Source: a virus
IMG/VR virus record: IMGVR_UViG_3300031578_013162
DNA: 23,904 bases
Strand: one strand, 5' to 3'
Position 1 is the stretch's first letter, and the number at the start of each line of letters is the position of its first letter. The notes under the pieces were generated by a model. It was not told the DNA's origin and did no database searches. It saw only the letters and a program-made list of their open reading frames with translations. The position numbers were made by a program, and so were the translations under genes. Positions 308 through 1,189 of this stretch are shown here, one piece after another.

Positions 308-1189
308 CTACTTCCTGCTTTTGAGATGTTCTTTTCGCTTAGCTCGCTGCCGAGTTTGTTTGATGGATTCCTCGATTTTCTTGAACTCTAACCTGTTTGC
401 GGCTCGGGCATTGCCATTGTATATCATCAGCATGTCTTCAAGAGTGTCTTTCCAAGTTCGTAGAGCGATTAACCCGGACTTCGACTTCGAAATAGCTTTG
501 TCGAATTTCCTGGCGTCAAAGTCTGGATTGGTAGTCAAAAGAAGCAAAGCTCGGATGAACGAGCCGCTTTTAGCTTGGATCGAATGGTCTTCTTCTCTGC
601 GGTCGATAATTTGAGAGATCGTCTCAGCGGATTCCATAGCCGTTTTTAATTGGCGATTAGACACCTTGAGTTCACCATCGACAAACAACTTCTTGGCGTT
701 TGGGATCTTTGGCTTCCCCGTCTCATTGTCTAATCCGTAGAGCAATAATAGACCATTCGCTACATTCAGAAATTCAGGATAGCTGCGAATCAAGTCATGA
801 AGCTTTCTGTAGTTGGGATCTTTTTTGGTGACGAATCGGTGCAGCCTTTCTCTGTCACTCCAGTCCCGGAACCCGCCATTGTGGTCGCTCATGACGGAAA
901 AATCTACCTCTTCTTTTTCAATTACAGTGTAATAAAAACTAATACCTTCTTCTTCTTCGGTGCCTTTACAAGCTGTGAATCTGTGCTGACCTGCGGTGAT
1001 AGCGAATTTGTTGCCCCTCACGACGACAATTATCGGCGACTTTTTGTCGAAGCCATGTTTCTCAATCTTCTTTCGTAGTGTTTTTGCATACTCCAGATTC
1101 ACTTTTCGATTCTCATCGAGGAAAGAAAACTTTGAAAAATCCTCAGTTTTGTAGACTCGCAGATCCTCGAAGCTGTCAGTATTGGACAT
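308..1189 (-). CDS. DGQHR-domain protein (DndB/DpdB-like ParB-fold)
   Basis: 293-aa ORF with a GGAG RBS. The motif SPIIVVVRGNKFAITAGQHRFTACKG matches the DGQHR signature of the DndB family, which is the ParB GERR-box equivalent. The rest is a helical C-terminal region. Confidence 0.5.
   Translation of the reverse strand: MSNTDSFEDLRVYKTEDFSKFSFLDENRKVNLEYAKTLRKKIEKHGFDKKSPIIVVVRGNKFAITAGQHRFTACKGTEEEEGISFYYTVIEKEEVDFSVMSDHNGGFRDWSDRERLHRFVTKKDPNYRKLHDLIRSYPEFLNVANGLLLLYGLDNETGKPKIPNAKKLFVDGELKVSNRQLKTAMESAETISQIIDRREEDHSIQAKSGSFIRALLLLTTNPDFDARKFDKAISKSKSGLIALRTWKDTLEDMLMIYNGNARAANRLEFKKIEESIKQTRQRAKRKEHLKSRK

What the first reader, a model, noticed from the sequence alone, without database searches (positions are those of the whole stretch)
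308..1189. DGQHR-motif (DndB/DpdB-type) ParB-fold protein in a phage context
The motif ITAGQHRFTA sits exactly where ParB has GERRxRA and DndB has DGQHR. DndB and DpdB family proteins are negative regulators and nickases of DNA phosphorothioation and 7-deazaguanine modification systems. No dnd or dpd partner is visible in this window, although a deoxyribosyltransferase-fold gene occurs at 16601-17215. A stand-alone DndB-like gene in a phage could be an anti-defense factor targeting host Dnd or Dpd restriction. It could instead be a regulator of a phage DNA-modification pathway encoded elsewhere.
Basis: partly seen in the sequence, partly recalled or inferred. Interest (0 to 1): 0.55.

Follow-up and report, generated by a model that had tools for sequence, protein, structure and literature searches.

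The report
Orphan phage ParB-like NTP-switch protein
The gene encodes a real ParB-fold protein with a GQHR nucleotide-binding motif, but it belongs to a large, uncharacterised phage family usually found among replication and recombination genes, not to the DndB or DpdB DNA-modification regulators, so it is a fairly ordinary find.

Summary
The ORF at 308-1189 (minus strand, 293 aa) is real, and its FAITAGQHRFTACK motif aligns with the GERRxRA box of ParB. A high-confidence AlphaFold model (pLDDT 94) has an N-terminal ParB/sulfiredoxin fold followed by a helical domain.

The protein matches no Pfam, PADLOC, DndB (PF14072) or DGQHR (TIGR03187) model, even at E<=10. It is a full-length member (E 1e-53) of a family of at least 3,200 clusters of 240-290 aa proteins. 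About 83% of these carry DGQHR; this clade has AGQHR.

Family members match generic ParB models far more often than DndB/DGQHR models. Their best whole-length structural matches are uncharacterised phage "ParB/Sulfiredoxin" proteins.

In 80 viral contigs, the commonest neighbours are a lambda-type exonuclease, ERF recombinase, a DnaD-like helicase loader and DnaB. I found no ParA. I found no dnd, dpd or queuosine genes in about 42 kb of this genome.

The most likely function is an NTP-gated DNA-binding switch acting on phage DNA early in infection. The DndB/DpdB and anti-Dnd readings are not supported.

One side finding: an ORF-less HEARO RNA element, present in some copies of this phage and absent from others, sits immediately 3' of the gene.

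The parts
308..1189 (-). CDS of the 293-aa ParB/Srx-fold protein (stop codon at 308-310)
   Evidence: ORF list. An identical protein is seen on at least 14 metagenomic contigs up to 87.5 kb. It is a full-length member of the phage family: 198.8 bits, E 1e-53, against a profile built without its own clade.
875..1168 (-). N-terminal ParB/sulfiredoxin (ParB-CTPase fold) domain, about aa 8-105
1106..1111 (-). Asn27-Arg28, the Box I-like pair that corresponds to the 'QR pair' of DGQHR domains and to Q..R of ParB
   Evidence: R28 is invariant and N27 is kept in 93/96 of the family alignment. The equivalence to ParB Box I is inferred from the alignment and from PMC13229309.
980..991 (-). Gly67-Gln-His-Arg70, the P-motif (GxxR, Box II). 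The preceding residue is Ala66, where the wider family has Asp.
   Evidence: G67 and R70 are invariant; Q68 is kept in 92/96, H69 in 93/96, and position 66 is D in 80/96 and A in 6/96. The motif aligns with GERR of ParB.
311..856 (-). Helical C-terminal domain, aa 112-293. Helices 125-136 and 143-151 plus a beta-hairpin at 153-160 look like a (winged) helix-turn-helix. A long basic C-terminal helix spans 270-292.
   Evidence: Secondary structure of the AF2 model. Profile positions 120-157 align with the HTH region of H. pylori ParB. Foldseek alignments to ParB, Noc and KorB span 210-260 columns. The DNA-binding role is inferred, not shown.
1198..1261 (-). Upstream signals: a GGAG ribosome-binding site (1198-1201) and a weak sigma-70-like promoter match (1261..1234) in the divergent intergenic region
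   Evidence: Sequence and promoter scan at 9/12 matches. The scan found 2 promoter-like sites in 1-2400 against a mean of 3.9 in shuffles, so this match is not evidence of function.
1..103 (-). 5' end (34 codons) of the next gene in the same orientation. It encodes a 271-278 aa protein of unknown function and is separated from, or overlaps, the ParB-like gene by only a few nt in related genomes.
   Evidence: The gap is 6 nt in L003 and L004. In the 54%-identical relative L006 the start overlaps the stop by 1 nt. It has no Pfam, PHROG or PDB match. A functional link is inferred only.

Best explanation
The gene encodes an orphan phage member of the ParB-CTPase (ParB/sulfiredoxin) fold superfamily. 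It has an N-terminal nucleotide-binding domain followed by a helical, probably (winged) HTH-containing, domain and a basic C-terminal helix. The nucleotide-binding domain carries Box I Asn27-Arg28, the P-motif Gly67-Gln-His-Arg70 and a Box III-like Asn104.

It belongs to a large family of 240-290 aa phage proteins (PHROG 12305-like, usually annotated 'ParB-like partition protein' or 'ParB/Sulfiredoxin'). These proteins have no ParA partner and usually sit in the early recombination and replication module.

The most likely mechanism, by analogy with ParB, Noc and KorB, has three steps. The protein dimerises. It binds an NTP (CTP or ATP; which one cannot be predicted) through the GxxR pocket. 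It then uses that nucleotide-dependent closure to engage phage DNA as a switch or clamp that organises or regulates replicating phage genomes or early transcription.

This clade has Gln at the position of the ParB catalytic Glu and has lost the family's Asp66, so it may bind nucleotide with little or no hydrolysis.

Shown here: the ORF, motif conservation, the fold, family membership, genomic context, and the absence of DndB/DpdB model matches. Inferred: NTP binding, dimerisation, DNA binding and the biological role.
For: ORF and motif.

Family size and membership: 3,207 representative clusters at E<=1e-3, with full-length matches. The window protein scores 198.8 bits (E 1e-53) over residues 8-275 against a profile built without its own clade. 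R28, G67 and R70 are invariant.

ParB relationship:
- PHROG 12305 'ParB-like partition protein', 2.2e-12, full length.
- Family members hit TIGR00180 (51/96), PF02195 (24/96) and Noc (29/96).
- PDB profile hits to ParB, Noc, SbnI and Srx, with DGQHR aligned on GERR and the alignment continuing into the ParB HTH.

Context:
- Flavobacterium phage: ParB-like, then SSB, then primase/helicase.
- Pneumophage early operon upstream of Bet and SSB.
- In 80 IMG/VR loci: lambda-exonuclease-like in 35, DnaD-like loader in 27 (immediately downstream in 14), DnaB-like in 24, ERF in 22.
- ParA-type Walker A in 0/80 loci and none in this virus.

Precedent: orphan phage ParB-CTPase folds are widespread and bind CTP, ATP or GTP (PMC12704722).
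Against: No experiment or direct computation here shows NTP binding, dimerisation or DNA binding.

The protein itself reaches no curated Pfam or NCBIfam threshold.

No repeated palindrome that could serve as a parS-like site was found in the window.

In this virus the gene is not next to the replication genes: DnaB and the clamp lie 17-20 kb away. The context argument therefore comes from distant relatives (21-29% identity), many of which may share synteny by descent.

Loss of Asp66 and several other family-conserved residues (Y18F, D114E, Y115R) could mean a changed function in this clade.

A phage ParB that activates a DNA dioxygenase did not need its NTP-binding residues (PMC13229309), so the switch model is not guaranteed.
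Confidence: 0.6

Rival explanations
1. One reading: a stand-alone DndB/DpdB-type protein that regulates a phage DNA-modification pathway encoded elsewhere, or acts as an anti-defence factor against host Dnd or Dpd restriction.
For: The wider family carries DGQHR (80/96), the signature of DndB-type domains (PMC4619093, PMC4507180). Three of 96 members weakly touch PF14072 and 2 of 96 touch TIGR03187. Only about 42 kb of a genome of at least 87.5 kb was inspected.
Against: - No hit of the protein to PF14072, TIGR03187 or any PADLOC model at E<=10.
- Generic ParB models match the family far more often and more strongly.
- Viral DndB-like models reach only TM 0.28-0.37.
- This clade lacks the Asp of DGQHR.
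- No dnd, dpd or queuosine Pfam families appear in any inspected gene of this virus or its 54%-identical relative.
- A PP-loop (DndC/QueC-type) motif occurs in 1/80 relatives' neighbourhoods.
Confidence: 0.06
2. A targeting or activating subunit for a DNA-modifying enzyme, such as a methyltransferase or a 5-methylpyrimidine dioxygenase. The precedent is the phage ParB proteins that switch on their cognate T-dioxygenases.
For: Phage ParB176 activates 5mYOX176 on dsDNA (PMC13229309). ParB-methyltransferase fusions are common in phages (PMC12704722), and PHROG 498, annotated as a DNA methyltransferase, gives a weak hit. A methyltransferase lies two genes upstream in the Flavobacterium phage, and methyltransferases lie about 4 kb away in pneumophage IPP69. 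The adjacent downstream gene has no known function.
Against: No modification enzyme was recognised in any inspected gene of this virus. The methyltransferase motif IV occurs in only 8/80 neighbourhoods. The 5mYOX-associated ParBs lack a DNA-binding domain (PMC13229309), whereas this protein has a large helical domain aligned with the ParB HTH.
Confidence: 0.1
3. A nuclease of the 'ParB-like nuclease domain' or Osa type that nicks or degrades host or competitor DNA.
For: The annotation 'ParB-like nuclease domain protein' is used for relatives. PHROG 940 'nuclease' gives a weak hit at 6.6e-4. Some ParB/Srx proteins, such as pNOB8 ParB-N in the PDB list, are described as nucleases.
Against: The window clade has lost the conserved acidic Asp66. 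The best matches are to NTP-binding ParB, Noc, KorB, Srx and SbnI, not to a defined nuclease active site. Such annotations are inherited names, not tests.
Confidence: 0.1
4. A true partition ParB (centromere-binding protein) of a plasmid-like prophage.
For: ParB fold plus an HTH-like domain. The PHROG and GenBank label is 'ParB-like partition protein'.
Against: No ParA-type ATPase was found in about 42 kb of this virus or in 80 relatives' neighbourhoods. There is no (L/F/I)G(K/R)G(L/F/I) ParA-binding motif in the N-terminus, judged against the motif definition in PMC12704722. No repeated palindromes were found. Relatives occur in strictly lytic Enterococcus Herelleviridae and in a pneumophage that encodes a site-specific recombinase.
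Confidence: 0.04

Closest known systems
Uncharacterised phage 'ParB-like partition protein / ParB-Sulfiredoxin' family (PHROG 12305; for example Enterococcus phage EfV12-phi1 gp084, Flavobacterium phage lillamy9-1 gp41, BFVD models A0A516KX02 and A0A6J5KVL7)
   Same: Same two-domain architecture and length. Full-length profile match. Whole-length structural match at TM 0.70-0.84. Same conserved positions: T15, F21, N27-R28, GQHR, N104, W110, Y127, G172 and Y257-N258.
   Different: Only 21-29% identity to most members. This clade has AGQHR instead of DGQHR, an acidic insert (TEEEEG) after the motif helix, and Y18F, D114E and Y115R changes. It is not adjacent to replication genes in this genome.
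Chromosomal and plasmid ParB-CTPase clamps (ParB/Spo0J, Noc, KorB)
   Same: Same N-terminal fold, with the GxxR P-motif in the same place. A following helical region aligns with the ParB HTH. Family members weakly match TIGR00180 and PF02195.
   Different: Gln replaces the catalytic Glu of GERR and His replaces the first Arg. There is no ParA partner or ParA-binding motif, and no parS found. The C-terminal domain differs. The protein is below the curated thresholds of all ParB models.
DndB / DGQHR-domain proteins (PF14072, TIGR03187)
   Same: ParB/Srx superfamily. The wider family shares the DGQHR pentapeptide, a preceding (Q/N)R pair and a downstream hydrophobic-xxx-N element (PMC4619093).
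   Different: No model match for this protein. Only 2-3 of 96 family members touch these models, and weakly. No dndCDE linkage. The Asp of the motif is absent here. Viral DndB-like structure models match poorly.
DpdB and DUF262/GmrS-type domains (SspE, DndI, BrxU, GmrSD)
   Same: ParB/Srx fold NTPase domain with a D-G-Q-x-R motif. 15 of 96 family members weakly match PF03235 GmrSD_N.
5mYOX-associated phage ParB activators (ParB176)
   Same: An orphan phage ParB-fold protein that acts without ParA. This is a precedent for a regulatory role on phage DNA (PMC13229309).
   Different: Those proteins lack a DNA-binding domain and sit beside a dioxygenase gene. No such gene was recognised here. Sequence relatedness to them was not tested.
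ATP-using ParB/Srx enzymes (sulfiredoxin, SbnI, SerK)
   Different: They are small-molecule or protein-directed enzymes with other C-terminal domains. The match covers only 82-108 residues. The genomic context of the family is DNA replication and recombination.

Membership tests
ParB/Srx (ParB-CTPase fold) superfamily | N-terminal ParB/sulfiredoxin fold | tested here: met
ParB/Srx (ParB-CTPase fold) superfamily | GxxR P-motif (Box II) and Box I arginine | tested here: met
   G67, R70 and R28 are invariant in 96 sequences. The motif aligns with GERR of ParB.
ParB/Srx (ParB-CTPase fold) superfamily | Match to PF02195 ParB_N at the curated threshold | tested here: not met
   No Pfam hit for the window protein at E<=10. 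24/96 family members match at E<=0.01. The 54%-identical relative has only a 'faint' precomputed hit.
ParB/Srx (ParB-CTPase fold) superfamily | Binding of an NTP | not testable with these tools
   Requires biochemistry. Sequence and AF3 do not predict nucleotide specificity (PMC12704722).
Phage orphan ParB-like family (PHROG 12305-like) | Full-length profile match | tested here: met
   phrog_12305 at 2.2e-12 over residues 11-263. 198.8 bits, E 1e-53, against the family profile without its own clade.
Phage orphan ParB-like family (PHROG 12305-like) | Same two-domain fold over the whole length | tested here: met
   BFVD models A0A516KX02 and A0A6J5KVL7: E 4e-12 and 1e-11, TMq 0.70-0.73, TMt 0.83-0.84.
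DndB / DGQHR domain (PF14072, TIGR03187, TIGR03233) | Match to the family models | tested here: not met
   No hit at E<=10 in Pfam or NCBIfam. Family members: PF14072 in 3/96 (best 0.0017), TIGR03187 in 2/96 (0.0055).
DndB / DGQHR domain (PF14072, TIGR03187, TIGR03233) | Nearly invariant DGQHR pentapeptide, plus a QR pair and FxxxN (PMC4619093) | tested here: inconclusive
   The window has AGQHR, NR and M-xxx-N. The wider family has DGQHR in 80/96, NR in 93/96 and (I/V/M)-xxx-N in 75/96. The elements are similar but not the same, and they are shared across the superfamily.
DndB / DGQHR domain (PF14072, TIGR03187, TIGR03233) | Genomic linkage to dndCDE (PT modification genes) | tested here: not met
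   No such Pfam families in about 42 kb of this virus or in its relative. A PP-loop motif occurs in 1/80 family neighbourhoods. About half of the genome was not seen.
DpdB (Dpd 7-deazaguanine system) | DGQQR motif in a DUF262-type domain, with an SspE-like C-terminal domain (PMC10164549) | tested here: not met
DpdB (Dpd 7-deazaguanine system) | Adjacent dpdA or preQ0 synthesis genes | tested here: not met
   None among the inspected genes.
Canonical ParABS ParB (TIGR00180) | ParA partner and ParA-binding N-terminal motif | tested here: not met
   No deviant Walker A (KGGxGK[ST]) ORF in this virus or in 80 relatives' loci. The N-terminus MSNTDSFEDLRVYK lacks the (L/F/I)G(K/R)G(L/F/I) motif, read from the sequence.
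Canonical ParABS ParB (TIGR00180) | parS-type repeated palindromes | tested here: not met
   No recurring palindrome in the window. The test is weak, because the site is unknown and only part of the genome is in hand.
Canonical ParABS ParB (TIGR00180) | HTH DNA-binding domain after the N-domain | tested here: inconclusive

The most novel reading that the evidence does not exclude
The AGQHR clade has lost the family's Asp66 and has Gln at the position of the ParB catalytic Glu. It may be a hydrolysis-deficient nucleotide sensor. In this reading it works with the adjacent, completely unannotated 271-278 aa downstream protein as a new two-component module of this dark phage lineage. That module might load or activate an unrecognised DNA-modifying or anti-defence activity on phage DNA, in the manner of the ParB-activated phage T-dioxygenases.
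Probability: 0.1. Interest if true: 0.6.

Novelty: new member of a known kind. Interest (0 to 1): 0.25.

Why it matters
Orphan ParB-CTPase-fold proteins are now recognised as one of the commonest unexplained protein kinds on phages and other mobile elements. Only a few have a known role.

This protein adds a very divergent branch that standard Pfam-based surveys would miss. It also ties the branch to a family of at least 3,200 clusters with a consistent placement beside recombination and replication genes. That gives a concrete, testable hypothesis: an NTP-gated DNA-binding switch in early phage DNA metabolism.

It does not open a new question, and it does not provide evidence for a phage counter-measure to Dnd or Dpd defence.

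Tried and rejected
1. PADLOC, Pfam and NCBIfam scans of the protein gave nothing usable.
2. The first AF2 run, with a 5-sequence alignment, gave a poor model (pLDDT 58.7) and was discarded in favour of the 96-sequence run.
3. The afdb50 fold library was unavailable.
4. The search for related loci with the 96-sequence alignment failed for lack of a conserved stretch. A 16-sequence sub-alignment worked.
5. Close relatives were sought in IMG/VR and in 185,579 reference genomes. None was found, so there is no host assignment.
6. megablast of the whole window against GenBank phages gave no match.
7. A search for parS-like repeated palindromes or repeats near the gene found nothing convincing.
8. 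My impression that the downstream partner contains an RNA-polymerase alpha-CTD-like helix-hairpin-helix got no support from Pfam, PHROGs or PDB phmmer, so I have dropped it as a claim.
About half of the genome therefore stays unseen.
10. Cluster names in public sources were only 'hypothetical protein'.
11. A crude TET/JBP regular expression was too loose to mean anything.
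Full report
**Observation**

The window has an ATG-started ORF on the minus strand at 308..1189, encoding 293 aa. A GGAG ribosome-binding site lies 8 nt upstream (sequence). The peptide FAITAGQHRFTACK lies at residues 62-75.

The identical protein is on record on at least 14 metagenomic contigs of up to 87.5 kb. Relatives at 86, 83, 62 and 54% identity exist; the three that cover the motif keep it.

The protein matches nothing in Pfam at E<=10. That includes ParB_N (PF02195) and DndB (PF14072). 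In NCBIfam it gives only a chance-level Noc hit (E 0.023) and no TIGR03187 DGQHR hit. It matches nothing in PADLOC. PHROGs gives a full-length match to phrog_12305, 'ParB-like partition protein' (2.2e-12, residues 11-263), plus weaker ParB-like phrogs.

**The family**

A profile of the five close homologues was searched against 1.84 billion cluster representatives. It found 3,207 proteins at E<=1e-3 and 265 at E<=1e-10. Almost all are 240-290 aa long and matched end to end. Most of the 150 listed carry DGQHR at the homologous position.

In a 96-sequence alignment (A2), R28, G67 and R70 are invariant. N27, Q68, H69, W110, Y127, G172, Y257 and N258 are nearly so. Position 66 is Asp in 80/96 and Ala in only 6/96, and those six include the window clade.

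A profile built without the window clade still scores the window protein at 198.8 bits (E 1e-53 for the whole library) over residues 8-275. The motif is therefore real and conserved, and the protein is a true member of a DGQHR-bearing family. This particular clade has lost the Asp.

**Which known family?**

I scanned all 96 members individually:

| Model | Members matched (of 96) | Best E-value |
|---|---|---|
| TIGR00180 parB | 51 | 5e-8 |
| Noc | 29 | 4.6e-6 |
| PF02195 | 24 | 6e-6 |
| PF03235 GmrSD_N | 15 | 3.3e-7 |
| PF20188 DUF6551 | 5 | 0.0019 |
| PF14072 DndB | 3 | 0.0017 |
| TIGR03187 DGQHR | 2 | 0.0055 |

The family profile finds H. pylori ParB (4umk, 2.4e-6), Noc, SbnI, M. xanthus ParB and sulfiredoxin in the PDB. 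DGQHR lies on top of GERR, and the alignment to ParB continues into its HTH region.

The family is thus a separate branch of the ParB/Srx superfamily. By profile it is nearer to generic ParB than to DndB.

The literature sets out the comparison points:
- DGQHR domains are defined by a QR pair, DGQHR and FxxxN (PMC4619093). The family has the analogous NR, DGQHR and hydrophobic-xxx-N. These are superfamily-wide boxes.
- DpdB carries DGQQR, has an SspE-like C-terminal domain and is about 45 kDa (PMC10164549).
- DndB is an ATP-modulated repressor of the dnd operon (PMC4507180, PMC12704722).

**Structure**

With the 96-sequence alignment, AlphaFold2 gives pLDDT 94.3 and pTM 0.87. The model has three parts:
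- a beta/alpha N-domain to about residue 105;
- a helical domain in which helices 125-136 and 143-151 are followed by a beta-hairpin, which looks like a winged HTH;
- a long basic C-terminal helix at 270-292.

Against viral models, the best matches are uncharacterised 'ParB/Sulfiredoxin' proteins of 243-250 aa from uncultured phages. They match over the whole length (E 4e-12, TM 0.70-0.84). Viral DndB-like models reach only TM 0.28-0.37.

**Context in this virus**

Neighbours with recognisable families:

| Window coordinates | Match |
|---|---|
| 2343-4997 | major-vault-protein-like protein |
| 15809-16600 | DnaJ |
| 18757-19929 | sliding-clamp phrog |
| 20708-22036 | DnaB |
| 22707-23900 | phrog_2426, 1.5e-72 |

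A head-tail connector phrog lies 2 kb beyond the ParB-like gene in the same virus. This supports a tailed-phage genome.

Together the window, L001 and L009 cover about 42 kb of a genome of at least 87.5 kb. Neither my Pfam scans nor the precomputed Pfam families show any dnd, dpd, queuosine, methyltransferase or ParA gene. The same holds for the syntenic 54%-identical relative.

Its fold was not tested.

The next gene downstream encodes 271-278 aa. It is separated from the ParB-like gene by 6 nt, or overlaps it by 1 nt, in related genomes. It has no recognisable family.

**Context of the family**

tblastn finds members in several kinds of phage:
- 31 Enterococcus phage records of about 145-157 kb; the one inspected, EfV12-phi1, is a Herelleviridae Schiekvirus;
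- a 735-kb metagenomic phage;
- Flavobacterium siphophages;
- Streptococcus prophages.

In Flavobacterium phage lillamy9-1 the gene is followed by SSB and primase/helicase. In pneumophage IPP69 it lies in the early rightward gene block, after the repressor and antirepressor genes and upstream of Bet and SSB. In Enterococcus EfV12-phi1 it lies near nrdD.

One peptide pattern (IIDGQHR) alone retrieved at least 377 confirmed relatives from IMG/VR. In the best 80 loci the commonest neighbours were:
- a lambda-exonuclease homologue, 35 loci (PDB 3syy, 2e-29);
- a DnaD-like helicase loader, 27 loci, immediately downstream in 14;
- a DnaB-like helicase, 24 loci (identified from its motifs, my own reading);
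- ERF recombinase, 22 loci.

These counts come from the clustering. No locus has a ParA-type Walker A, one has a PP-loop motif and eight have a methyltransferase motif IV. Shared ancestry among these contigs inflates the counts, but the picture agrees with the annotated phages.

**Interpretation**

The evidence supports an orphan phage ParB-CTPase-fold protein. Such orphans are known to be widespread on mobile elements and to bind CTP, ATP or GTP unpredictably (PMC12704722). One phage subgroup activates a DNA dioxygenase (PMC13229309).

By analogy with ParB, Noc and KorB, I infer the following sequence of events:
1. The protein dimerises.
2. It binds nucleotide through the N27-R28 / G67-R70 / N104 pocket.
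3. It engages DNA through the helical domain and the basic tail.
4. It acts as a switch or clamp on phage DNA during early replication, recombination or transcription.

Gln at the position of the ParB catalytic Glu, together with the loss of Asp66, suggests weak or absent hydrolysis in this clade. None of these mechanistic steps is demonstrated here.

Rival readings are ranked in the Rival explanations section. They are a DndB/DpdB-type regulator or anti-defence factor, an activator of a modification enzyme, a nuclease, a partition protein, and a small-molecule kinase of the SerK, SbnI or Srx type. The last is considered only briefly, because the family's genomic context is DNA replication and recombination.

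**Verdict**

This is a new, very divergent member of a known but functionally unexplained kind. Interest is modest.

**Side finding**

The spacer between the gene's stop codon and the next gene holds a HEARO RNA (Rfam RF02033).
- L001 and L002 share the same 455-nt insert (alignment). Its HEARO copy, scanned in L001, is complete: 122.5 bits, above the gathering score of 83.
- The window carries a 3'-deleted copy at 67-306: 73.2 bits, E 6e-15, below gathering, and so missed by the standard scan.
- L003 and L004 have no insert at all, although they encode the identical ParB-like protein.

No IscB-sized ORF accompanies the element. It looks like an ORF-less HEARO element whose presence varies within one phage population.

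Noticed in passing
window 67-306 (-); L001 10884-11124 (+): A HEARO RNA (RF02033; to my knowledge the omega-RNA scaffold of IscB) sits immediately 3' of the ParB-like stop codon. In L001 it is complete (122.5 bits, above the gathering score of 83) inside a 455-nt insert, and L002 carries the same insert. In the window, about 255 nt including its 3' half are deleted (73.2 bits, E 6e-15, below gathering). L003 and L004, which encode the identical ParB-like protein, have no insert and only a 6-nt gap. No IscB-sized ORF is adjacent, and no other HEARO copy occurs in 84 kb of related loci. It looks like an ORF-less, mobile or decaying HEARO element whose presence varies within one phage population.
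   Followed up: partly
window 2343-4997 (+): An 884-aa protein with Major Vault Protein shoulder (PF11978, 3e-27), Vault_3 and SPFH/Band 7 matches, in a phage-like genome. It is conserved (897 aa) in the 54%-identical relative. It has no PHROG match.
   Followed up: partly
window 1-103 (-); L003 5274-6110; L006 10849-11664: The gene downstream of the ParB-like gene (271-278 aa) is separated from it by 6 nt in L003 and L004, and overlaps its stop by 1 nt in L006. It has no Pfam, PHROG or PDB match. The HEARO insert separates the two genes in the window.
   Followed up: partly
window 15809-16600 (-): A full-length DnaJ-type co-chaperone (J domain 3.5e-12 and DnaJ C-terminal domain 3.4e-16) encoded inside the phage replication gene block.
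   Followed up: no
window 10979-11358: Two full tandem copies of a 168-nt unit (79-82% identity) plus the first 44 nt of a third, inside overlapping ORFs 10889-11464 (+) and 10960-11298 (-). Which strand is coding, and what the repeat does, was not resolved.
   Followed up: no
window 8577-8693: A run of 12-18-nt periodic GC-rich repeats inside ORF 8545-9099 (-). It probably encodes a low-complexity acidic stretch.
   Followed up: no
The best Pfam hit is a chance-level phasin match at E 0.021. Its fold was not predicted.
   Followed up: partly
L009 1-5110 (same virus, beyond the window's right end): Beyond the window's right end the genome has two clear tRNA genes and one marginal match (30 bits against a gathering score of 29). 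It also encodes a subtilisin-type S8 peptidase, a 5'-3' exonuclease (FEN) and a small RRM_1 RNA-binding protein.
   Followed up: no
window 10832-10847: A perfect 7+7 palindrome with a 2-nt spacer, ACGATTAAATAATCGT, lies in the divergent intergenic region between ORFs 9102-10778 (-) and 10889-11464 (+). It overlaps one copy of a 30-nt imperfect repeat also seen at 17093 and 21888. It is a possible operator.
   Followed up: no
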